The notes: generated by a model from the letters alone, not told the origin. 15,864 bases of DNA from a virus (UHGV-0248791), one strand, 5' to 3'; positions 7-11,901 are shown, counted from the first letter of the stretch. Numbers and translations are program-made.

Positions 7-83
7 TGGACCGCCATCGAGGACTCGAACCCCGCGCAACCAGCTTCGAAGGCTGGCGCTCTATCCTGATGAGCTAATGGCGG
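7..83 (-). tRNA. tRNA-Arg (anticodon UCG), phage-borne
   Basis: Reverse complement of 7..83 folds as a 77-nt cloverleaf: acceptor CCGCCAT/ATGGCGG, D-arm GCTC-ATCAGGATA-GAGC, anticodon arm CCAGC-CTTCGAA-GCTGG (anticodon UCG), T-arm CGGGG-TTCGAGT-CCTCG, discriminator T, encoded CCA. Confidence 0.75.
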
Positions 84-90
84 TATGTGA

Positions 91-162
91 TGGTGGCCCT
101 TGCTGGATTTGAACCAGCGACCTGGCGATTATGAGTCGCTCTCACCACTGAGCTAAAGGGCC
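91..162 (-). tRNA. tRNA with CAU anticodon (Ile2/Met type, ileZ-like), with a shortened D-arm
   Basis: Reverse complement of 91..162: acceptor GGCCCTT/AAGGGCC, T-arm GCTGG-TTCAAAT-CCAGC, anticodon loop CTCATAA (CAU), discriminator A, encoded CCA. Only 72 nt because the D-arm is short (3-bp stem, 6-nt loop) and 27:43 is an A-C mismatch, so it may be a degenerate copy. Confidence 0.6.
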
Positions 163-768: not shown

Positions 769-987
769 TAACAGCCGTTAATATAAATTGGCTAATAGAT
801 TTATTTTTATTCAGCCAAGAGCCATGAATAGGATTCGATAGAAAAAAGTTCAGATAAAAATAGAGATCTACTTCACAAATCAAACGAGAAACCAAAACTT
901 ACATCTTGAAATAATCACATTGATTAGATGAATATTTATCGCGCAGTGACATCATTTTTTAATAATAGTTCAAAAAAAGGGCTCACG

Positions 988-2070
988 ATGAAAAAATTAA
1001 CAGTGGCAATTTCTGCTGTAGCTGCATCAGTACTGATGGCGATGTCTGCTCAGGCAGCTGAAATTTATAATAAAGACAGTAACAAGCTGGATCTGTACGG
1101 GAAAGTTAATGCTAAGCACTATTTCTCCTCTAATGATGCAGATGATGGTGATACTACTTATGCCCGTCTTGGCTTCAAAGGTGAAACCCAAATCAACGAT
1201 CAACTGACTGGTTTCGGTCAGTGGGAATATGAATTCAAAGGCAACCGCGCTGAATCTCAAGGTTCCTCCAAAGATAAAACCCGTCTTGCCTTCGCTGGCC
1301 TGAAATTCGGTGACTACGGCTCAATCGATTACGGCCGTAACTACGGTGTAGCATACGACATCGGTGCGTGGACTGACGTTCTGCCAGAATTCGGTGGCGA
1401 TACCTGGACCCAAACAGATGTGTTCATGACTGGTCGCACCACTGGTGTTGCAACTTATCGTAACAACGACTTCTTTGGTCTGGTTGATGGTCTGAACTTT
1501 GCTGCTCAGTATCAGGGTAAAAATGACCGCACTGACGTAACTGAAGCTAATGGTGATGGTTTCGGTTTCTCCACTACTTATGAGTATGAAGGATTCGGTG
1601 TAGGTGCAACCTATGCTAAATCTGACCGCACTAATAATCAGGTTATCTACGGTAACAACAGCCTGAATGCATCTGGTCAAAATGCTGAAGTATGGGCAGC
1701 TGGTCTGAAATATGATGCGAACAACATCTATCTGGCTACCACCTATTCTGAAACCCAGAACATGACTGTTTTTGGTAATAACCATATTGCCAACAAAGCA
1801 CAAAACTTCGAAGTAGTTGCACAATATCAGTTCGACTTCGGTCTGCGTCCGTCCGTTGCTTACCTGCAATCTAAAGGAAAAGACTTGGGTGCGTGGGGTG
1901 ATCAGGACCTGGTTGAATATATTGATGTAGGTGCAACCTATTACTTCAACAAAAATATGTCCACTTTTGTTGATTACAAAATCAACCTGATTGATAAGAG
2001 CGATTTCACGAAAGCATCTGGCGTTGCTACCGATGATATCGTTGCTGTAGGTATGGTTTACCAGTTCTAA
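988..2070 (+). CDS. nmpC: General porin of the OmpC/OmpF/PhoE family (NmpC-type prophage porin), intact
   Basis: Start at ATG 988 ([23 protein letters not shown] signal peptide, then mature N-terminus AEIYNKD typical of enterobacterial porins) with AAAGGG Shine-Dalgarno upstream. Aromatic C-terminal ...VGMVYQF. The ORF-track start at 928 adds 20 codons ahead of the signal peptide and is unlikely. Confidence 0.9.
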
Positions 2071-2258: not shown

Positions 2259-2642
2259 TTAATTAGAGTTATTAACAACGATATCCATCTCTAACCGGAT
2301 ATCTAATGCCATTAACATCCCTTCAATTATGCCCTCAGCCTTCTGTAACCTTTTCCCGATATAACCATCAGAGCAGCAATGCTTACCTGCCAGTGACATG
2401 AATGTCATACCGACTACATAATAATCTACTAATAAATCGTGCAAATCGCTGTTGTTCTTTTTCAGACGGGCCATGCACCCGCAAATAATCATCGCGTCAT
2501 CGTCACAACATTGCGGGCGAGATTTTACTTTTGAAGTAATTAATCCCTTAAAACCGGCGGCAATGGACGACCAGGTCACATCTTCATGATTATTAGCCGC
2601 CCACGCTCCCCAGCGTTCGAGAACCATCTGAATATCACGCAT
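2259..2642 (-). CDS. Late-gene antiterminator Q (phage 21/DLP12 QuuD-like)
   Basis: 127-aa product [22 protein letters not shown]... with Cys-rich zinc-binding segment ([13 protein letters not shown]...HCCSDG). Start taken at ATG 2642 with GGAGA Shine-Dalgarno; the track's longer ORF begins at a TTG. Confidence 0.8.
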
Positions 2643-2659
2643 CAACTTTCTCCACAAAA

Positions 2660-6262: not shown

Positions 6263-7255
6263 TCAGAATGTCAATTTGTTACTGGATTTACCGAATTTGT
6301 CAGACATGGCTCCCAGGCCAGCCAGGACATCGACCTGTCGCTGTCGCCCACCTCCGTGAGCGGCTGGCTGTTGCCAGTAATCTTCGAAGTGACGATCGGG
6401 TCCAAAGAACGTCGCAGCCTGCTTCACGAACTGTGTGCCGGTATTTCCTGTAGCACGTACCCAGGCGGCATACCGCTTCACGCCATCAAGCATGGTCTCC
6501 GGTTTTATTCCCTCCCTGATACGGGCTTTCCAGGCTTTGAAGGCTGCTGACTTGGAATTGCCACCAGCACGTTTGGGATATTCCTGCCAGGCCTGTTCAA
6601 ATTCCGGTGAATATTCCTGTCGGGCAGAACGCGCTGGCGCAGACGCGTCAGCGGATGCATCAATAGTGTTTTTAGTCTCCGTTGTAATCTCTGTAGTAAT
6701 CTCTGTATTTGTATCAACATTCGGCGTATCCCCTGTTCCGTTATGACGTCGGGGGGTGTTCCGTTTTAACGTAATAGCTGTATCGCTGATTGCATTATTG
6801 CTGTTACTTTCTGGCGAAACAGAAGAAGGTGTGGTGATGGCCGCAATTGCCTGTGGGTTGATCCCGACAAACAAAATATTGCTGCATTTCACCCCATCGA
6901 GCATTTCCACCGTGCGTAAATCCAGAGTAATAAACCCTGCATCGCGCAGACGCTTCAGCGCATCTGCGGTTTCCCTTTTCCCGAAACCAAACTGCTCAGC
7001 AAACGCCTGGTAGCTTCTTTGCAGTTTGTCGCCCTGAAAACGCTTGCGATATCCCAGCAACGCTCCGGTGTGCTCATCCCTGACCTCTGTCGGGCGGTAC
7101 CAGTAAACGATCTCTGAAAGCAGAGCGATAGCCGTCGCATCCGGACGCCCACTGGGTAGTCGAATATATTTCCACCAGTTCGCAGGTGTAACATTGCCGG
7201 AAATATTAATTTGACCAATAGCCATAACTTCCGGTGTGGGGGCGTAACGGCTCAT
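6263..7255 (-). CDS. Replication initiator / replisome organiser (lambda O-like role)
   Basis: 330 aa, directly upstream of the DnaC- and DnaB-like genes with ATGA overlap to the preceding ORF. Low-complexity central linker (TEITTEITTE, DASADASA) between N- and C-terminal domains; AAGGAGG Shine-Dalgarno before ATG 7255. Confidence 0.65.
   Translation of the reverse strand: MSRYAPTPEVMAIGQINISGNVTPANWWKYIRLPSGRPDATAIALLSEIVYWYRPTEVRDEHTGALLGYRKRFQGDKLQRSYQAFAEQFGFGKRETADALKRLRDAGFITLDLRTVEMLDGVKCSNILFVGINPQAIAAITTPSSVSPESNSNNAISDTAITLKRNTPRRHNGTGDTPNVDTNTEITTEITTETKNTIDASADASAPARSARQEYSPEFEQAWQEYPKRAGGNSKSAAFKAWKARIREGIKPETMLDGVKRYAAWVRATGNTGTQFVKQAATFFGPDRHFEDYWQQPAAHGGGRQRQVDVLAGLGAMSDKFGKSSNKLTF
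6675..6707. repeat. Iteron-like 12-bp direct repeats within the O-like gene (candidate replication origin)
   Basis: GTAATCTCTGTA at 6684-6695 and 6696-6707, preceded by the degenerate copy TCTCCGTTGTA (6676-6686). Lambda ori iterons also lie inside the O gene linker. Confidence 0.4.
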
Positions 7256-7551
7256 ACAACCTCCTTCCGCGGCATGAGAATTGTGTAGCCACGCGCAGGT
7301 TGTAGTCTGGCTTTTGCATCAATAGTAAGCGTTGCAATTTTTCGGATATGAAGATAACCAGCTCTTTCCAGTGCCAGGGTTTCCCTGAATATCGCTTGCT
7401 TAGAACAACAGCAGAAATCAGCAAGCACCTGATGATCAATAACTCTCTCGCCTTCACCGTCTGAAGAACCCGACATCAAAACACGCAACATAATCAGGCG
7501 CTGAATCGGGTTATCGAAAGCACATCCGCACACAAACTGAAAACAGTTCAC
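7252..7551 (-). CDS. Hypothetical protein (99 aa), possible helix-turn-helix DNA-binding protein
   Basis: GTG start overlapping the upstream stop (GTGA) with GGAGG 6 nt upstream; ATGA overlap with the O-like start. Possible HTH segment SKQAIFRETLALERAGYL. Confidence 0.5.
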   Translation of the reverse strand: MNCFQFVCGCAFDNPIQRLIMLRVLMSGSSDGEGERVIDHQVLADFCCCSKQAIFRETLALERAGYLHIRKIATLTIDAKARLQPARGYTILMPRKEVV

Positions 7552-7772
7552 GCCACACCTCCCAGACGCTTAAACATTTTTCCAGACAGAAATACCGCCA
7601 GAGGGTAACTGATGGTGTAGCTACGCCCCTGTAGTTCGCACACGACTTTCTGGCTTTCAGCGTTGACTAGGCAAACCCGCAGAACGTGACCGTTGCTGGT
7701 GGCGAACCACTGCCCCACACGGGGGCAACGGTTGTATCGGTGATACAGGGAATTAACGATGTGGCGGATCAT
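7548..7772 (-). CDS. Hypothetical protein (74 aa)
   Basis: ATG 7772 with GGAGG Shine-Dalgarno 7 nt upstream; ATGA overlap with the upstream ORF. Confidence 0.5.
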   Translation of the reverse strand: MIRHIVNSLYHRYNRCPRVGQWFATSNGHVLRVCLVNAESQKVVCELQGRSYTISYPLAVFLSGKMFKRLGGVA

Positions 7773-7963
7773 GGACGCACCTCCGCCGTAGTTACGTATT
7801 TAACCGGGCTACCTTTCATTGAGATGGTTTCACACATCTCTGCCGCTTTCAGTTCCGCTGTTTTTCTGGATTTATAGCGACGGTGCCAGACAGATACATC
7901 CGTGCGAACTGATACATCGTTTCTGTATTCCGTAGTGGAGATGATGATTTCGTAACTAATCAT
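7769..7963 (-). CDS. Hypothetical protein (64 aa)
   Basis: ATG 7963 with GGAGG Shine-Dalgarno 7 nt upstream; ATGA overlap with the stop of the Rha-family gene. Confidence 0.5.
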   Translation of the reverse strand: MISYEIIISTTEYRNDVSVRTDVSVWHRRYKSRKTAELKAAEMCETISMKGSPVKYVTTAEVRP

Positions 7964-8820
7964 GGGCGAACCTCCTTGTCAGAACCATTCAGCCTGGAAT
8001 CAACAAGTGCAGCGCCAAAAACAGCATCACCAACACGGTCGTACAGTTTGCTAGCCAGCGGAGATTCAACGGCCTTAAGCATTGGATAAAGCTGGCTTGT
8101 CCAGATTTGATGGATTTCACGCAAATGCAGGTATACGCCTCTGGCGTTTCGTGCGACAGCTGACATATCAGACGCATCGGCACCTGATAAACTCTTCTCC
8201 ATCAGGTTAAAGGCGTTGATGTATGCCTCTTTGAACCGGGCAGCACGTTTACCAGTGAAGCCCATGGCAAGAAACGCAAAACCGTCGCGGGTGATTTGGT
8301 AACAAGGGAGCTTGCGTGTACCACCGTTCGGTTGATTTACCGAAATCGATGTCTCCGCAAAATTGCGGGCACAAAACTCAGGGGAACAATCCAGAGTGCG
8401 GATCTTTTTCAGCACATCGTCATGACGCTTGGAGAAGAAGTTGGCAACAGCCAAAGAAGTGGTAACGGCCTGGCCGTTGTCAATGGTGATTTCAGGTTGA
8501 GTGAGGGCTGGGATCGTAGCCATGATGGCAGCCTCCGTTGACAGTGAAAAACTTCCACCACCGGAAACGCCAATTTCACTGGTGGTGAACTGGACGGGGT
8601 TGGCGTAACCGGCGTCAACGGAGACCGGCGCACCTTTCGGTGCCCCCGCCCAGCCCACCATAATCTGGATGTGAGCAAATGCGGACGATAAAAAAGACGC
8701 TGGCGCGTCATACATCGCCGTTGACAATTTCAGGACGCCAATCCCGGCACCCGCTTTATAAGGTGCGGAGACAGTGTAACGTCCCGGAATTGCAGAATCA
8801 ATATGCTGGTGGCGGATCAT
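7960..8820 (-). CDS. Rha-family phage regulatory protein (paralog A); alternative internal start at 8523 would give a 187-aa product
   Basis: Rha-like motifs AVTTSLAVANFFSKRHDDVLKKIRTL...ITRDGFAFLAMGFTGKRAARFKEAYINAFNLME. Two nested starts: ATG 8820 (GGGAGG Shine-Dalgarno, ATGA coupling to the upstream gene) and ATG 8523 (GGAGG Shine-Dalgarno), the latter sitting right at the start of the Rha domain. Confidence 0.6.
   Translation of the reverse strand: MIRHQHIDSAIPGRYTVSAPYKAGAGIGVLKLSTAMYDAPASFLSSAFAHIQIMVGWAGAPKGAPVSVDAGYANPVQFTTSEIGVSGGGSFSLSTEAAIMATIPALTQPEITIDNGQAVTTSLAVANFFSKRHDDVLKKIRTLDCSPEFCARNFAETSISVNQPNGGTRKLPCYQITRDGFAFLAMGFTGKRAARFKEAYINAFNLMEKSLSGADASDMSAVARNARGVYLHLREIHQIWTSQLYPMLKAVESPLASKLYDRVGDAVFGAALVDSRLNGSDKEVRP
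8524..8820 (-). promoter_or_regulatory. Conserved structured leader, copy A (candidate cis-regulatory RNA; may also be translated as an N-terminal extension)
   Basis: Transcript sense: site 1 GTCAACGG (8725..8718), terminator-like GACGC-GCCA-GCGTC plus U6 (8709..8690), hairpin GCACC-GAAA-GGTGC (8643..8630), site 2 CUCCGUUGAC (8623..8614), pseudoknot-type helices ACGCCAA/TTGGCGT interleaved with CACCACC/GGTGGTG (8606..8556), site 3 GUCAACGGAG overlapping the Shine-Dalgarno (8542..8533). Confidence 0.4.
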
Positions 8821-9479
8821 AGGTGCACCTCCCGTTGATTACGACGGAACGCGGAGTGACCCTGGACGGTTTCAGCCTCATGGAATGCTTCAATACAGCT
8901 CTCGTAGTACCGCATTGTGCGCAGACTTAACCCAAGCTGAAGCATCATCAGACCATCAAGGGTGATGTAATAACCACGCAGGGAGTCACCGTAGATGTGA
9001 TAAGTACCCGGTATGAAATTGCGGGTAAAAAACCCGCGTGAGCAGTTCAGATACTCGATTTTGTCAACGATGTTCTGGTGCATGCGCTTGAAATGGCAGG
9101 CAACATGCAGGGAGAAAATAACGGCCTTGCCGTTGACGACTTCGATTTTTAGGAATGGGGAAGTTAGGACAGTAGCCATGATGGCAGCCTCCGTATGCAA
9201 TGGATAACTTCCACCACCGGAGCTGCGAAACTCATGGGTGGTGAACTGAACAGGGTTCGCAGTACCGGCGCATACGGAAACCGGCGAGCCTTTCGGCTCC
9301 CCTGCCCAGCCCACCATAATTCTGGCGTGCGTGAGCGCGGACGATAAAAAAGACGCTGGCGCGTCATATATCGCCGTATGCAATTCCGGGCTGCGACCCC
9401 CGGCACCCGCTTTATAAGGTGCGGAGACAGTGTAACGTCCCGAAATTGCAGAATCAATATTTGGTCTTGAAATGATCAT
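8817..9479 (-). CDS. Rha-family phage regulatory protein (diverged paralog B); alternative internal start at 9179 would give a 120-aa product
   Basis: Degenerate Rha-like region AVIFSLHVACHFKRMHQNIVDKI...ITLDGLMML. ATG 9479 lacks a clear Shine-Dalgarno, whereas internal ATG 9179 has GGAGG 8 nt upstream within a 20-nt block identical to copy A. Confidence 0.5.
   Translation of the reverse strand: MIISRPNIDSAISGRYTVSAPYKAGAGGRSPELHTAIYDAPASFLSSALTHARIMVGWAGEPKGSPVSVCAGTANPVQFTTHEFRSSGGGSYPLHTEAAIMATVLTSPFLKIEVVNGKAVIFSLHVACHFKRMHQNIVDKIEYLNCSRGFFTRNFIPGTYHIYGDSLRGYYITLDGLMMLQLGLSLRTMRYYESCIEAFHEAETVQGHSAFRRNQREVHL
9180..9479 (-). promoter_or_regulatory. Conserved structured leader, copy B (same architecture as copy A with compensatory changes)
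   Basis: Site 1 GCATACGG (9381..9374), identical GACGC-GCCA-GCGTC plus U6, hairpin GAGCC-GAAA-GGCTC (9299..9286), site 2 UUCCGUAUGC (9279..9270), helices CTGCGAA/TTCGCAG interleaved with CACCACC/GGTGGTG, site 3 GCAUACGGAG overlapping the Shine-Dalgarno (9198..9189). Confidence 0.4.
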
Positions 9480-9563
9480 ATAGCTGCTGATATCTTTAGA
9501 ACTGTTCTTGGATGTTTCGGAGCCGTTTTATGCGAAACAGCTCCCCGTTATTGATGTTGAGTG

Positions 9564-9588
9564 AGCCGGGTTACTCCCGGCTTTTTTT
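9564..9588 (+). terminator. Strong rho-independent terminator on the plus strand, antisense to the early-right operon
   Basis: AGCCGGG-TTACT-CCCGGCT 7-bp GC-rich stem (9564-9582) followed by a T-run to 9588. On the minus strand the hairpin is not followed by U, so it is unidirectional for plus-strand transcripts. Confidence 0.55.
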
Positions 9589-10295
9589 CACCGCTGCCAA
9601 CCAATAACCTGAAATAACCCCATTTTCGGGTGATACCAGCGAGTCCCTCGCGGTTCTGCTTCCTCCATAATCCGATAAAAAGCAGCCATAAACGGTTCCA
9701 CAGCAACAATTGCGCGACGTGACAACAATCCGTCCGGCGTCATGAACTCATGGGTGTCTGTAGGAATCTGATAGGCGTTCACCAGATTGCGGCATTTATC
9801 ATCTGACAAACCGGTTTTTGCTTTCAGTTGGCGATATCCGGCATAGCCCTCACGAATAGTGCCCTTTTTAATTTGCTCGACTGTTTCAGCAACGTGGCTG
9901 ACTTTTTCTTCCACCTGAGTGATCCGTTTCTGTTGGCGAACGGCTTCAAGAGCCATCGCGGCAACCATTTCGATTTCGCTCATTGGCTTACGGATCTGTT
10001 CTTCCAGTTCGCGCCAGCGATCTACCAGGCGAGCTGTGAATTCAGGACAGAGCTGTGCGACGACAATGATGCTGTCGCGCTTACCTCGTTCACCTTCGAA
10101 TACATACGCGCTAGAAAATCGGCGAGGCCCAAGTGATTGTTTATTCTCAATTTCCACAGTCTGTGGAAATTGGATGATTCCCTTTTTAGCCAGTGTTTCA
10201 ATAGTTCTCTTAACACTATCTGGTCGGCTTCCCACCAGCTCTGCGATCTCAACGCTGGTCATGGATGCTTTGCCGTTAAAAATTGCGGTGTTCAT
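9588..10295 (-). CDS. Rha/antirepressor-family phage regulatory protein (235 aa)
   Basis: N-terminal MTSVEIAELVGSRPDSVKRTIETLAKKGII...GERGKRDSIIVVAQLCPEFTARLVDRW resembles Rha-family regulators. ATG 10295 has an AGGAGA Shine-Dalgarno 6 nt upstream. Confidence 0.7.
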   Translation of the reverse strand: MNTAIFNGKASMTSVEIAELVGSRPDSVKRTIETLAKKGIIQFPQTVEIENKQSLGPRRFSSAYVFEGERGKRDSIIVVAQLCPEFTARLVDRWRELEEQIRKPMSEIEMVAAMALEAVRQQKRITQVEEKVSHVAETVEQIKKGTIREGYAGYRQLKAKTGLSDDKCRNLVNAYQIPTDTHEFMTPDGLLSRRAIVAVEPFMAAFYRIMEEAEPRGTRWYHPKMGLFQVIGWQR

Positions 10296-10519
10296 TGTTG
10301 GTCTCCTGTGGGCTTGTCATCTTCTGTATTCGCTAGACTTGGGTGTGTATATGGAATGCTCGGATCCAGATGACAAAGAATGGCAACATCCTCCGGAACA
10401 CCTCGCGTTTTCCACTTTCCAACACCTTGACTGCCACGAGGCCTTCCTTTCTTTGGGAACCTGCGACCAATAGCGGCATTGGTTTTAAATTGAATTTTTA
10501 ATATTTCATAAAGGGTCAT
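10292..10519 (-). CDS. Questionable small ORF (75 aa) in the Cro position; no HTH recognisable, may instead be an untranslated leader
   Basis: ATG 10519 is only 17 nt from the operator cluster and has a weak Shine-Dalgarno. The product is basic and low-complexity (GRRFPKKGRPRGSQG). The stop overlaps the downstream ATG (ATGA). Confidence 0.3.
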   Translation of the reverse strand: MTLYEILKIQFKTNAAIGRRFPKKGRPRGSQGVGKWKTRGVPEDVAILCHLDPSIPYTHPSLANTEDDKPTGDQQ

Positions 10520-10536: not shown

Positions 10537-10608
10537 GATACTTTGTTATCCAACGATGTTAACCATAGGAACCCAAAGTATCAAGAAATTCTGTTACTTT
10601 AGTATCAA
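10537..10608. promoter_or_regulatory. OR-type operator cluster with divergent PRM/PR promoters between cI and the early-right operon
   Basis: Three copies of an AAGTATC core: GATACTTTG (10537-10545, inverted), AAAGTATCAA (10575-10584), TTAGTATCAA (10599-10608). On the minus strand the motif reads TTGATAC, which overlaps a -35-like hexamer (TTGATA, 17 nt, TAACAT). Confidence 0.5.
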
Positions 10609-10630
10609 CAGCCATGAGAGGAGAAGAAAA

Positions 10631-11287
10631 ATGAAGTCTTTAGGTGAACGTCTCATCAACGCACGGCAAAAAGCTGGGTTAACACAAGATGCGTTGGCTA
10701 AAAAAGCTGGGGTCACCAGAGTTGCAATAAGTAAAGCCGAGCAAGGCCTTACAAAAAGTTTCAACGGTGACACCCTTTTTAAAGTTGCAGCTGCACTGCG
10801 GTGTTCACCGCAGTGGCTTCAGAACGGAGATGAAAAAGATAAGCATTGGGAAAATAATGTTAAGAGCTGCCCACAGAGAGACACAGCACACTCTTACCCT
10901 GTAATTAACTGGGTTCAGGCAGGATTATTCGCAACTTCTGGTGATGACTACAACATGTATGATCAGGATAATTGGAGGCATTCTGTAAAATACGCTGGTG
11001 AGAGGGGGTTCTGGCTGGAAGTGCACGGAGACTCAATGACTTCGCCCGTAGGAATAACATTTCCTGAAGGAATGTCGATCCTTGTCAACCCAGATAAAGA
11101 AGTTTTTTCAGGGTGTTACGTCATCGCCAGAAAAAAATCCACCAATGAAGCAACATTCAAAAAATATATTTCTGACATGGGAAAGGCGTTTCTAAAGCCC
11201 CTTAATCCACAATATCCAATCATAGAAATGGACAATGATTGCGAAATAGTAGGTGTTGTGGTTGATGCCAGATGGGATATTTTCTGA
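10631..11287 (+). CDS. CI-type prophage repressor (N-terminal HTH, C-terminal LexA-like S24 peptidase domain)
   Basis: HTH LTQDALAKKAGVTRVAISKAEQG; S24 motifs GDSMTSP (Ser) and a downstream Lys; candidate Ala-Gly cleavage site in WVQAGLF. Start ATG 10631 with AGAGGAGAAG Shine-Dalgarno; the track's longer ORF lacks one. Confidence 0.85.
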   Translation: MKSLGERLINARQKAGLTQDALAKKAGVTRVAISKAEQGLTKSFNGDTLFKVAAALRCSPQWLQNGDEKDKHWENNVKSCPQRDTAHSYPVINWVQAGLFATSGDDYNMYDQDNWRHSVKYAGERGFWLEVHGDSMTSPVGITFPEGMSILVNPDKEVFSGCYVIARKKSTNEATFKKYISDMGKAFLKPLNPQYPIIEMDNDCEIVGVVVDARWDIF

Positions 11288-11397: not shown

Positions 11398-11901
11398 ATG
11401 ATCAATAAAGCTACAACTCTTGACTGTCTCGAAGAACTGAAAAACCTCGGCAGCCTCATTACACTAATAGCAAAAGCAACACCTGATGCTACGCTCTCTA
11501 GCGATATAGAGTCATGCGCAGGACTGGCATGGGATATGACAAATAGCATATCCAGAAAGCTATCGTCAGCAATGCTTTTACAGAACAAAAATTCTGCAAT
11601 CAACAACCGTCTTCGCACCCAACGCGAAGCCTGCGGCTTAACAACCGCCGAACTCGCCAGGCTGCTCGATCTCGATGAAGAAATCATCATTCAGTGGGAG
11701 AGCGGAGAGTATGAACCAACCATCAGTATGCTTATCCCACTGGCAAATATTCTTGGCTGCGATCCGATGTGGCTGTTAACTGGCGAGGTTACTCCTCCGG
11801 AGCAACCAAAAAGTGAGGAGCAGCAACACCATGACGCATCTCAACAAGTTTGCCCCTTATCTCGCGAAGCTCTTCTGCGGAAGAACCAATACCAATGGTG
11901 A
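11398..11901 (+). CDS. HTH (XRE-family) DNA-binding protein, first gene of the early-left operon; not N-like
   Basis: HTH in the C-terminal half (LTTAELARLLDLDEEIIIQWESGEYEPTISMLIPLANILGCDPMWLLTG). No arginine-rich N-terminal motif. ATG 11398 with GAGG upstream. Confidence 0.55.
   Translation: MINKATTLDCLEELKNLGSLITLIAKATPDATLSSDIESCAGLAWDMTNSISRKLSSAMLLQNKNSAINNRLRTQREACGLTTAELARLLDLDEEIIIQWESGEYEPTISMLIPLANILGCDPMWLLTGEVTPPEQPKSEEQQHHDASQQVCPLSREALLRKNQYQW

What the first reader, a model, noticed from the sequence alone, without database searches (positions are those of the whole stretch)
7960..10519. Early-right operon carries three Rha-family paralogs where Cro and cII are expected
Immediately downstream of the OR operators the minus-strand operon has a doubtful 75-aa low-complexity ORF, then a 235-aa Rha/antirepressor-family gene, then two tandem diverged Rha-family genes, and only then the small ORFs and replication genes. 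I found no HTH Cro-like or cII-like ORF in any frame between OR and the O-like gene. Rha-family genes are normally single accessory genes, so a triple set in the lysis-lysogeny decision position suggests an unconventional switch or an anti-repressor/exclusion function.
Basis: partly seen in the sequence, partly recalled or inferred. Interest (0 to 1): 0.55.

Follow-up and report, generated by a model that had tools for sequence, protein, structure and literature searches.

The report
Two RNA-gated Rha cassettes beside Cro
This prophage has an ordinary repressor/Cro switch after all, and two of its three "Rha genes" are small gene cassettes, each kept off by its own antisense RNA; this design is already known from phage P1 and Salmonella Gifsy-1.

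Summary
The ORFs exist, but the interpretation mostly fails.

1. **Cro is present.** The "doubtful" 75-aa ORF (10519-10292, minus strand) is conserved across Enterobacterales. It is always the first gene divergent from an HTH+S24 cI-type repressor. Its model (pLDDT 88) matches N15, Xfaso-1 and P22 Cro best.
2. **The 235-aa gene is Roi-like.** It has a Rha/Roi-type N-terminal domain and its start overlaps the cro stop (ATGA).
3. **The two tandem "Rha genes" are not 220- and 286-aa proteins.** Their first ~100 codons (the Pfam "Ash" domain) are two copies of a 284-nt RNA leader. Each leader holds a promoter, an IsrK-like sRNA with terminator (Rfam 59 and 62 bits), a C4 antisense RNA (83 and 81 bits), and C4 target sites covering the Shine-Dalgarno of the real Rha CDS (120 aa and 187 aa).

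The two leaders differ in the C4 recognition elements a'/b' and in both sets of targets, so they look mutually orthogonal. Across 20 distinct leaders these elements covary (94-99% paired, against 62-64% when shuffled). Relatives carry arrays of one to three cassettes.

This is the Gifsy-1 isrK-orf45-anrP / P1 c4-icd-ant design with a Rha cargo. No cII homologue was found. It is a new member of a known kind, of modest interest.

The parts
10631..11287 (+). cI-type repressor (HTH_3 + Peptidase_S24). The likely true start is M26 of the listed ORF 10556-11287.
   Evidence: Pfam Peptidase_S24 78.5 bits and HTH_3 53.8 bits. RefSeq relatives annotate a 657-nt 'LexA family protein'. Translation from 10631 begins MKSLGERL.
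10537..10606 (.). Operator region. Three 14-nt partial dyads of the form GATAC-N4-GTATC at 10537-10550, 10569-10582 and 10593-10606.
   Evidence: Repeats; coordinates. That these are repressor/Cro binding sites is inferred, not shown.
10556..10584 (-). Candidate early-right promoter (TTGATA-17-TAACAT)
   Evidence: Consensus scan, 9 of 12 matches. This is a pattern match only.
10292..10519 (-). Cro-like gene (75 aa)
9588..10295 (-). Roi-like protein (235 aa) with a Rha/Roi-type winged-helix N-terminal domain. Its ATG overlaps the cro stop codon (ATGA).
   Evidence: Residues 1-99 are 61-68% identical to Roi of Stx phages such as VT2-Sakai. phrog_63 'anti-repressor Ant' E = 4e-46. Phage_pRha 25.6 bits (below cut-off) and HTH_Crp_2 E = 2e-5. 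Sequence.
9429..9457 (-). Cassette A promoter (TTGATT-17-TACACT)
   Evidence: The hexamers and their spacing are kept across 65 leaders even where the spacer diverges, and they align with the Gifsy-1 isrK promoter.
9346..9422 (-). Cassette A IsrK-like sRNA. It carries sites a1 (9398-9389) and b1 (9381-9371) and ends in an intrinsic terminator.
   Evidence: Rfam RF01394, 58.8 bits (gathering score 50). Terminator at 9365-9352. Site coordinates.
9234..9321 (-). Cassette A C4 antisense RNA. Element b' is 9280-9269 (UUUCCGUAUGCG) and a' is 9263-9256 (ACUGCGAA).
   Evidence: Rfam RF01695, 83.3 bits (gathering score 45), E = 1.8e-15. Predicted fold -46.2 kcal/mol.
9180..9317 (-). Cassette A counterpart of Gifsy-1 orf45. 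Its AUG lies at the 5' end of C4. It is 46 codons long and in frame with the Rha ATG, with no stop between. It contains a2 (9230-9219) and b2+SD (9198-9187).
   Evidence: dN/dS for this segment is about 0.74 and variability is flat across codon positions.
8817..9179 (-). Cassette A cargo: short Rha-domain protein (120 aa)
   Evidence: GGAGG lies 8 nt before the ATG. phrog_995 E = 1e-54. dN/dS is 0.10-0.22 in all but one comparison with relatives of the same length; the exception is the two copies within L054, at 0.31. 36% identical to the cassette B cargo.
8773..8801 (-). Cassette B promoter (TTGATT-17-TACACT)
8690..8766 (-). Cassette B IsrK-like sRNA. It carries a1 (8742-8733) and b1 (8725-8715) and ends in a terminator.
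   Evidence: Rfam RF01394, 62.2 bits. Terminator at 8709-8696.
8578..8665 (-). Cassette B C4 antisense RNA. Element b' is 8624-8613 (UCUCCGUUGACG) and a' is 8607-8600 (UACGCCAA).
   Evidence: Rfam RF01695, 81.4 bits, E = 5.1e-15. Relative to copy A there are compensatory changes in hairpin 1 and in the closing stem.
8524..8661 (-). Cassette B counterpart of orf45, in frame with the Rha ATG. It contains a2 (8574-8563) and b2+SD (8542-8531).
7960..8523 (-). Cassette B cargo: Rha-family protein (187 aa)
   Evidence: Phage_pRha 95.1 bits. TIGR02681 88 bits. phrog_821 E = 7e-103. 39.6% identical to P22 Rha over residues 12-112.

Best explanation
The region is a conventional lambdoid immunity switch followed by accessory genes. 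The switch has an S24-type cI, three operators and a divergent Cro-like gene.

The first accessory gene is a Roi-like DNA-binding protein, translationally coupled to cro.

The next two are self-contained cassettes. Each has, in order:
1. its own sigma-70 promoter;
2. a 77-nt IsrK-like sRNA ending in an intrinsic terminator and carrying sites a1 and b1;
3. an 88-nt C4 antisense RNA carrying the complementary elements a' and b';
4. a second set of sites, a2 and b2, with b2 overlapping the GGAGG Shine-Dalgarno of a Rha-domain gene.

**Shown here:** the anatomy, the RNA family membership, the complementarity, its covariation across relatives, and purifying selection on the cargo but not on the "Ash" reading frame.

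**Inferred from P1/P7 immI and Gifsy-1 isrK-orf45-anrP:**
- In a lysogen the cassette promoter makes short IsrK-like RNA plus some read-through transcript. C4 is processed out of the read-through transcript.
- C4 pairs with a2/b2 and blocks ribosome entry, so the Rha protein is not made.
- The IsrK-like RNA, which carries decoy sites a1/b1, shifts the balance towards translation.
- Translation may start either at the SD-linked AUG or at the orf45-type AUG inside C4, which here is in frame with Rha.

The two cassettes differ in both a and b elements. Each C4 should therefore control mainly its own cargo, as with P1 versus P7 heteroimmunity.

What the Rha cargos do is the weakest step. The likeliest roles are anti-repressor-like or regulatory action on a repressor or promoter of this or another prophage.
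For: **RNA genes.** Rfam finds C4 at 83.3 and 81.4 bits (gathering score 45) and isrK at 58.8 and 62.2 bits (gathering score 50), inside the two ORFs. The experimentally studied Gifsy-1 locus has the same isrK-then-C4 layout upstream of anrP (PMC4825925).

**Specificity of the two cassettes.** The cognate triplets are:

| Cassette | a element | b element |
|---|---|---|
| A | UCGCAG | GCAUACGG |
| B | UUGGCGU | GUCAACGG |

. Predicted duplex energies for the C4 core against the downstream target are -41.3 and -44.3 kcal/mol for cognate pairs, against -28.3 and -27.3 for crossed pairs.

**Covariation across 20 distinct leaders**:

| Pairing | Cells paired | Shuffled | Slid | Double-sided changes (observed vs shuffled) |
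|---|---|---|---|---|
| a'/b' with a2/b2 | 94.2% | 61.5% | 33-46% | 88 vs 27.7 |
| a'/b' with a1/b1 | 98.9% | 63.5% | not stated | 97 vs 28.1 |

**Coding signal.** The cargo shows dN/dS of 0.10-0.22. The "Ash" frame shows about 0.74 and 1.1, with variability flat across codon positions.

**Conserved signals.** The internal GGAGG-N8-ATG and the promoter hexamers are conserved in 65 leaders.

**Cro.**

**Roi.**

**Arrays.** Relatives carry one to three cassettes, confirmed by Rfam in L058 and L061.
Against: - No expression data exist for this locus. The promoter scores only 8 of 12 against consensus and was not picked up by the generic scan.
- The frame through the whole leader is open in nearly all relatives, and indels are multiples of three. 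Ribosomes probably do traverse at least the C4-proximal part, so the region is not purely non-coding.
- Cassette B's long ORF has a good SD and an ATGA junction at 8820. It could be translated from the early-right transcript.
- The shared ACGGAGGC part of b2 leaves about 8 bp of possible cross-pairing between the cassettes.
- The cargo here is a Rha domain. It is not homologous to AnrP, which is an ORF6N protein. P1 Ant was not compared. An anti-repressor activity is therefore an analogy, not a finding.
- The Cro assignment rests on fold and position. Sequence profiles are silent and hhalign against P22 Cro is weak.
Confidence: 0.8

Rival explanations
1. One reading: the phage lacks Cro and cII, and the three Rha paralogues form an unconventional lysis-lysogeny switch in their place.
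For: No Pfam, NCBIfam or PDB sequence match to Cro or cII for any small ORF. Three Rha-profile hits lie between the operators and the replication genes.
Against: The 75-aa ORF has a Cro-type fold and a Cro-type position, and it travels with its cI in genomes that have no Rha genes. Immunity-region swaps replace cI together with this small gene and leave the Roi-like gene in place. The cassettes vary from zero to three in related phages, including inducible ones, so they are accessory.
Confidence: 0.05
2. The 220-aa and 286-aa ORFs are genuine two-domain Ash-Rha proteins, as RefSeq and Pfam annotate them. The RNA family matches are secondary.
For: Pfam Phage_ASH scores 62.7 and 73.5 bits, above its cut-off of 26. 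RefSeq annotates the equivalent of the 220-aa ORF in a close relative as 'ash family protein' and the 286-aa equivalent as 'Rha family phage regulatory protein', both as long ORFs. The frame stays open across diverged leaders, with indels in multiples of three. An SD+ATGA junction precedes the 286-aa ORF.
Against: The Ash frame shows dN/dS of about 0.74-1.1 and no third-position excess, against 0.1-0.2 in the cargo. The variable positions covary as RNA duplexes, not as codons. The ORF would contain a promoter and a terminator. In Gifsy-1 the same leader is out of frame with its cargo and has been shown to act as RNA (PMC4825925). The 220-aa ORF has no SD.
Confidence: 0.1
3. The cassettes are addiction or abortive-infection modules rather than anti-repressors. 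The Rha cargo harms the cell or an incoming phage, and C4 acts like an RNA antitoxin.
For: Over-expressing IsrK in Gifsy-1 stops growth, through AnrP and AntQ (PMC4825925). From my own knowledge: rha was defined as a gene that inhibits phage growth in IHF-deficient hosts, and P1 icd blocks cell division. The RNAs are made constitutively in lysogens (10.1101/787010).
Against: No PADLOC defence model matches any of these proteins. Nothing here tests toxicity. The 120-aa cargo is only a DNA-binding-type domain.
Confidence: 0.2
4. The Roi-like 235-aa protein takes over the role of cII and activates repressor establishment.
For: It occupies the position directly after cro and has a winged-helix domain. 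A candidate antisense RNA with a terminator abuts its stop codon, recalling lambda oop at cII.
Against: It has no similarity to cII families. Its relatives (Roi) normally sit in the nin region of Stx phages. Relatives with the same cI/Cro lack it and carry unrelated ORFs in this slot.
Confidence: 0.1

Closest known systems
Gifsy-1 isrK-orf45-anrP locus of Salmonella (Hershko-Shalev et al. 2016, PMC4825925)
   Same: The order is the same: promoter, IsrK sRNA with terminator, C4-type RNA (STnc1160), an AUG at the 5' end of C4 (the first AUG of orf45), and an SD covered by b2. Rfam finds isrK and C4 in both. The leaders align base by base.
   Different: - The cargo here is a Rha domain, not the ORF6N protein AnrP.
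- The orf45 counterpart is in frame with the cargo with no stop. In Gifsy-1 its TGA overlaps the anrP ATG.
- There are two cassettes in tandem.
- They lie in the early-right operon, not downstream of Q.
P1/P7 immI region (c4 antisense RNA-icd-ant; Citron and Schuster 1990, from my own knowledge and as summarised in PMC12197685)
   Same: The C4 RNA has elements a' and b' complementary to a1/b1 upstream and a2/b2 downstream, with b2 at the ribosome-binding site. Specificity variants give orthogonal control.
   Different: The cargo's relation to P1 Ant was not tested. The upstream a1/b1 segment is a separate terminated sRNA. Many more specificity types are present: I read about 8 a-types and 11 b-types from the table, and they reassort. 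Several cassettes can sit in one phage.
Satellite phage P4 CI RNA with seqA/seqC
   Same: According to PMC4825925, IsrK is a structural homologue of the P4 seqA RNA, and CI pairs with sites on both sides of itself.
   Different: In P4 the outcome is transcription termination of the replication genes. Whether termination plays a part here was not tested.
All-alpha Cro proteins (N15, Xfaso-1, P22)
   Different: There is no significant sequence similarity. The 75-aa protein has a conserved basic 5-residue insertion (PKKGRPRG) in the turn before the predicted recognition helix.
Roi of HK022 and Stx phages, and Rha of P22 and phi80
   Same: The N-terminal domain of the 235-aa protein is 61-68% identical to Stx-phage Roi. 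The cassette B cargo is 39.6% identical to P22 Rha.
   Different: Roi normally lies in the nin region, but here its relative is coupled to cro. The Rha cargos here sit behind an RNA leader. The P22 rha region was not checked for one.

Membership tests
C4 antisense RNA (Rfam RF01695) | Covariance-model score at or above the gathering score | tested here: met
   83.3 and 81.4 bits against 45; full-length matches covering model positions 1-87.
C4 antisense RNA (Rfam RF01695) | Elements a' and b' complementary to a1/b1 upstream and a2/b2 downstream, with b2 at the ribosome-binding site | tested here: met
   Both cassettes have cognate triplets. Covariation across 20 leaders gives 94.2% and 98.9% paired cells, with 0 of 500 shuffles as high.
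C4 antisense RNA (Rfam RF01695) | Processed from a longer transcript and represses translation of the downstream gene | not testable with these tools
   Needs Northern blots, RNase P assays and reporter fusions.
IsrK sRNA (Rfam RF01394) | Covariance-model score at or above the gathering score, with its own promoter and intrinsic terminator | tested here: met
   58.8 and 62.2 bits against 50. Terminators at 9365-9352 and 8709-8696. Conserved -35/-10 hexamers aligned with the Gifsy-1 promoter.
Gifsy-1 isrK-orf45-anrP operon | Upstream ORF (orf45) whose stop overlaps the cargo start codon (translational coupling) | tested here: not met
   The homologous AUG is present (9317, 8661), but it reads in frame into the cargo with no stop. 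In Gifsy-1 the orf45 TGA overlaps the anrP ATG.
Gifsy-1 isrK-orf45-anrP operon | Cargo homologous to AnrP | tested here: not met
   AnrP is an ORF6N protein (72.2 bits). It shows no meaningful alignment with the Rha cargos.
Rha family (Pfam PF09669 / TIGR02681) | Profile score above the curated cut-off | tested here: met
   This applies to the 187-aa cargo only: 95.1 bits against 29.9 and 88 against 45.95. It is also 39.6% identical to P22 Rha.
Rha family (Pfam PF09669 / TIGR02681) | Profile score above the curated cut-off (120-aa cargo and 235-aa protein) | tested here: inconclusive
   Scores are 26.4 and 25.6 bits, below 29.9. The 120-aa cargo is nevertheless 36% identical to the 187-aa cargo. 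The 235-aa protein is Roi-like but is not significantly similar to the cargos in pairwise comparison.
Cro (all-alpha, P22/N15 type) | Small protein encoded as the first gene divergent from the repressor, across the operators | tested here: met
   This arrangement is seen in the window and in E. coli, phiP27, Stx1 phage, Klebsiella and Photorhabdus relatives.
Cro (all-alpha, P22/N15 type) | Cro fold | tested here: met
Cro (all-alpha, P22/N15 type) | Sequence-profile match to a Cro family | tested here: not met
   No Pfam or NCBIfam hit. hhalign against P22 Cro gives probability 2.7%.
Cro (all-alpha, P22/N15 type) | Binds the operators and represses the repressor's maintenance promoter | not testable with these tools
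   Needs gel-shift assays and genetics.
Lambda cII / P22 C1 type activator | Profile match in any ORF between the operators and the replication genes | tested here: not met
   No cII family hit for the 64-, 74-, 99-, 120-, 187- or 235-aa products. The 99-aa ORF matches the N-terminus of a replication initiator (phrog_4617, E = 2e-29).
Ash protein family (Pfam PF10554) | Profile score above the cut-off | tested here: met
   62.7 and 73.5 bits against 26. However, the matched residues are the translation of the promoter, IsrK and C4 leader and show no coding-type constraint. The match describes an ORF call, not a demonstrated protein domain.

The most novel reading that the evidence does not exclude
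Tandem arrays of one to three IsrK-C4 cassettes act as a combinatorial RNA "barcode" among lambdoid prophages.
- The a and b recognition elements reassort independently. I read at least 8 a-types and 11 b-types from 26 distinct combinations.
- Cassettes within one array almost always differ in b'. By my reading this holds for 15 of 16 pairs.
- A lysogen would therefore silence only incoming or co-resident cassettes of matching type. Mismatched cassettes would express their Rha effectors and disturb the resident prophage.
- The in-frame orf45-Rha fusion would add a second, structure-gated isoform of the effector.
Probability: 0.25. Interest if true: 0.6.

Novelty: new member of a known kind. 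Interest (0 to 1): 0.33.

Why it matters
**Annotation.** The "ash family protein" and long "Rha family" ORFs annotated here and in many E. coli prophages merge a regulatory RNA leader with a shorter real gene. The 75-aa "hypothetical protein" is probably the Cro of a widespread immunity type. That type includes phiP27 and several Stx1-converting phages.

**Biology.** The locus shows that the IsrK/C4 leader is a portable control unit. It is attached to different DNA-binding cargo families (Rha here, ORF6N in Gifsy-1), comes in many orthogonal specificities, and can be stacked in one phage. This gives a ready set of natural variants for testing how antisense specificity shapes interactions between prophages. 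The mechanism itself is already established for P1/P7 and Gifsy-1, so this is not a new principle.

Tried and rejected
**Searches that found nothing**
- Sequence searches for the 75-aa ORF: Pfam, NCBIfam and a PDB profile search found nothing useful.
- PDB sequence searches for the 187-aa and 235-aa proteins found nothing.
- PADLOC found no defence-system match for any protein of the operon.
- I looked for a cII candidate in relatives that share this cI/Cro. The ~100-aa ORFs in that slot have no informative family.

**Hypotheses rejected**
- I expected the cassette cargo to be homologous to Gifsy-1 AnrP. It is not: AnrP is an ORF6N protein.
- I considered that the 120-aa cargo is a truncated pseudogene. 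It keeps its length in five lineages, with dN/dS of 0.1-0.2.
- I considered that the three Rha-profile genes are recent paralogues. That is true only for the two cassette cargos.

**Technical limits**
- A BLAST-based cassette count missed diverged leaders, and a first regular expression found none. The corrected pattern still misses some cassettes, so array frequencies are lower bounds.
- MAFFT misplaced a2 in leaders with a 3-nt insertion and the b elements in two short-loop leaders. This lowers the counts. I did not hand-correct it.

Full report
**Setting**

The window is a lambdoid prophage segment.
- On the plus strand lie a cI-type repressor and further leftward-operon genes. The repressor scores HTH_3 53.8 bits and Peptidase_S24 78.5 bits. 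Its likely start is 10631.
- On the minus strand run, in order: the 75-aa ORF, the three Rha-profile ORFs, three small ORFs, an O-like initiator, a DnaC-like loader, a DnaB-like helicase, a DUF968-type gene and a Q-type gene.
- Between cI and the 75-aa ORF are three GATAC-N4-GTATC-like 14-mers and a TTGATA-17-TAACAT promoter match.
- About 91 of 5,426 complete E. coli genomes carry at least 80% of the 2.75-kb region, and 1,444 carry some part of it. phiP27, several Stx1a- and Stx2-converting phages, and the mitomycin-induced phage ASU11 share much of it.

**The 75-aa ORF is Cro-like**
- It has no Pfam, NCBIfam or PDB sequence match and belongs to a PHROG of unknown function.
- It is nevertheless conserved at 63-95% identity across E. 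coli, Klebsiella, Yersinia, Salmonella, Citrobacter, Providencia, Photorhabdus and Xenorhabdus, with 23 invariant positions in residues 1-57 and a variable tail.
- With that alignment, AlphaFold gives pLDDT 87.8 for an all-helical domain.
- In six places read in Klebsiella and Photorhabdus records, the homologue is always the first gene divergent from an HTH_3+S24 repressor, about 105-115 bp away. It is followed there by unrelated small ORFs and replication genes, not by Rha genes.
- Where relatives of the window carry a different cI, the small gene changes too while the Roi-like gene stays. It is annotated Cro in PhiR49_2 and 'putative CII repressor' in ASU11.
- I conclude with about 0.8 confidence that this is the Cro of this immunity type.
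- One oddity remains: a conserved basic insertion (PKKGRPRG) in the turn before the predicted recognition helix.

**The 235-aa gene**
- Its ATG overlaps the cro stop codon.
- Residues 1-99 are 61-68% identical to Roi of VT2-Sakai and other Stx phages.
- It hits phrog_63 'anti-repressor Ant' (E = 4e-46) and several winged-helix families. Phage_pRha scores just below its cut-off.
- In pairwise comparison it is not significantly similar to the two downstream cargos.
- It is best described as a Roi-like DNA-binding protein in a slot that varies within this cI/Cro lineage.

**The two tandem ORFs are RNA-gated cassettes**

*RNA genes inside the ORFs.* Rfam places a C4 antisense RNA at 9321-9234 and 8665-8578 (83.3 and 81.4 bits, gathering score 45). 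It places isrK at 9422-9346 and 8766-8690 (58.8 and 62.2 bits, gathering score 50). These lie exactly under the Pfam Phage_ASH hits of the two ORFs and within a 294-nt direct repeat.

*Parts of each copy, in order*:
1. TTGATT-17-TACACT promoter.
2. The IsrK-like RNA with a GC hairpin and U-run terminator.
3. C4.
4. About 85 nt further on, GGAGG-N8-ATG opening the Rha domain.

The real cargos are therefore 9179-8817 (120 aa) and 8523-7960 (187 aa). They are 36% identical to each other. The 187-aa cargo is 39.6% identical to P22 Rha.

*Comparison with Gifsy-1.* The Gifsy-1 record shows the same isrK-then-C4 pair upstream of anrP. The leaders align throughout.

**Recognition elements**

Aligning the two copies shows that most differences fall in six short islands.
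- The loop of C4 hairpin 2 (b') is complementary to a site just before the IsrK terminator (b1), and to a site running into the Shine-Dalgarno (b2).
- The joint after hairpin 2 (a') is complementary to the loop of the second IsrK hairpin (a1), and to a site about 20-30 nt downstream of C4 (a2).

| Cassette | a element | b element |
|---|---|---|
| A | UCGCAG | GCAUACGG |
| B | UUGGCGU | GUCAACGG |

Predicted duplexes favour cognate over crossed pairs by 13-17 kcal/mol.

*Relatives.* I collected 80 related loci from IMG/VR, which gave 65 unique leaders. They fall into 26 combinations of elements. By my count these represent about 8 a-types and 11 b-types, which reassort but stay matched as triplets.

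*Covariation test.* On a MAFFT alignment of 20 distinct leaders, which was not fitted to any structure:

| Pairing | Cells paired | Shuffled | Slid | Double-sided changes (observed vs shuffled) |
|---|---|---|---|---|
| a'/b' with a2/b2 | 94.2% | 61.5% | 33-46% | 88 vs 27.7 |
| a'/b' with a1/b1 | 98.9% | 63.5% | 33-51% | 97 vs 28.1 |

This is the P1/P7 c4 arrangement (summarised in PMC12197685; listed as c4 and c4-a1b1 in PMC2864571).

**Is the "Ash" part translated?**
- The cargo is under purifying selection: dN/dS is 0.10-0.22 between 120-aa variants.
- In the same frame upstream, dN/dS is about 0.74 from the C4-embedded AUG to the cargo ATG, and about 1.1 further upstream. Variability is flat across codon positions at 0.62, 0.61 and 0.65. 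The amino-acid sequence is therefore not conserved as a protein.
- Even so, the AUG in AUUAUGGUGGG is homologous to the first AUG of Gifsy-1 orf45. It is in frame with the cargo ATG at 138 or 141 nt, with no stop, in essentially all leaders.
- In Gifsy-1, orf45 ends in a TGA that overlaps the anrP ATG.
- This fits the published view that translation through orf45 matters while its peptide sequence does not (PMC4825925; PMC12197685). Here it would produce an N-terminally extended Rha isoform.
- Cassette B's long ORF also starts at a GGAGG...ATGA gene junction that recurs at two later gene boundaries. Read-through translation from the early-right transcript therefore cannot be excluded.

**Arrays**

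Relatives carry one, two or three cassettes. Rfam confirms three isrK-C4 pairs in L058 and in L061. Upstream units repeat every 656 nt with the 120-aa cargo. By my reading, cassettes within one array differ in b' in 15 of 16 pairs. The close E. coli relative L001 has the B-type leader on the 120-aa cargo and a third type on the second cassette, so leaders and cargos recombine.

**Mechanism: shown versus inferred**
- *Shown:* the anatomy, the family membership of the RNAs, the complementarity and its covariation, the orthogonality of the two cassettes in sequence and in predicted energy, and the coding constraint on the cargos.
- *Inferred from P1/P7 and Gifsy-1:* C4 is processed from read-through transcripts and blocks cargo translation by pairing at a2/b2. 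The IsrK-like RNA counteracts this. Derepression yields Rha proteins that act on a repressor or a promoter.
- IsrK and the C4-type RNA STnc1160 are abundantly expressed in Salmonella lysogens (10.1101/787010).
- The activity of the cargo is unknown. No defence model matches and no solved homologue exists.

**cII**

No ORF matches a cII family. The 99-aa ORF matches the N-terminus of a replication initiator, and the 64- and 74-aa ORFs belong to PHROGs of unknown function. Other Stx-phage lineages are already reported to lack cII, cIII and N (PMC8044961), so this absence is not exceptional.

**Verdict**

The main inference is wrong, because Cro is present. The feature that actually explains the tandem pair, two orthogonal IsrK-C4 leaders, was missed. 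The system is a new member of a known kind. The co-occurrence of c4 and isrK next to Bro-N, Rha or AntA genes has been noted before, for example in APSE phages (10.1101/2020.03.17.996009). I did not find the following described in the literature I searched: stacking of orthogonal cassettes, the reassorting a/b types, and the in-frame orf45-Rha fusion. These are modest extensions of what is known.

Noticed in passing
window 9467-9592 (+ strand): A candidate small antisense RNA lies in the spacer between the Roi-like gene and cassette A. It has a TTGAAA-18-TATCTT promoter match with an extended TG, an internal hairpin, and a strong terminator (GAGCCGGG-TTACT-CCCGGCTT followed by a T-run) whose tail abuts the Roi-like stop codon. 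Its position recalls lambda oop at the end of cII. Rfam has no match. It is about 100% conserved in close relatives only, so covariation is uninformative.
   Followed up: partly
window 8809-8832, 7952-7975, 7761-7784: A conserved gene-junction motif, GGAGGTnCnnCnATGAT, appears at three gene boundaries. It provides the SD plus an overlapping stop/start, and the upstream proteins end in ...EV(H/R)(L/P). The 286-aa ORF and the 74-aa ORF both begin MIRH. This suggests that cassette B and the 64-aa ORF were inserted at such a junction and that the long ORF borrowed its start from it.
   Followed up: partly
L060:4708-4991: One cassette in a three-cassette array has b1 and b' of one type (CAAUAUAG / CUAUGUUG) but b2 of another (CACCAAAG). 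It is an apparent recombinant whose SD site is not matched by its own C4.
   Followed up: no
L084 (Gifsy-1) 33513-34329; L059:10268-10545: The same IsrK+C4 leader drives a non-homologous cargo in Gifsy-1 (AnrP, ORF6N domain, 72 bits). By its first codons, the second cassette in L059 has an AnrP-like cargo too. The leader is a portable unit shared by different cargo families.
   Followed up: partly
window 7960-8820 and 8817-9479; RefSeq relatives such as L001:4172-4834: The Pfam Phage_ASH domain and the RefSeq name 'ash family protein' correspond here to the conceptual translation of a promoter, an sRNA, a terminator and an antisense RNA. Annotation of this family may need review.
   Followed up: partly
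window 11398-11901 (+): A second HTH_3 protein (167 aa) lies directly downstream of cI on the same strand. It is conserved in phiP27 (L10) and in E. coli relatives. Its HTH region gives weak PADLOC hits to RmrA and capH models. Its function is unknown; it may be a second regulator or a target of the Rha cargos.
   Followed up: no
window 7252-7551 and 6263-7255 (-): The 99-aa ORF matches only the N-terminal ~90 residues of a PHROG replication-initiator family (phrog_4617, E = 2e-29). It sits directly upstream of the 330-aa O-like gene. The same 99-aa + ~280-aa pair occurs in a Klebsiella relative (L089). This looks like a two-gene initiator.
   Followed up: no
window 10-162 (-), 928-2070 (+), 2259-2657 (-): Two tRNA genes (Rfam 56 and 58 bits) and an OmpC/NmpC-like porin gene lie next to the Q-type antiterminator gene at the left end of the window.
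   Followed up: no
L087-L092 (Klebsiella, Photorhabdus): In relatives that share this cI/Cro pair, the slot directly after cro holds unrelated ORFs of ~30-105 aa (phrog_4439, phrog_852, unknown function) instead of the Roi-like gene. The post-cro position is therefore a variable accessory slot.
   Followed up: partly
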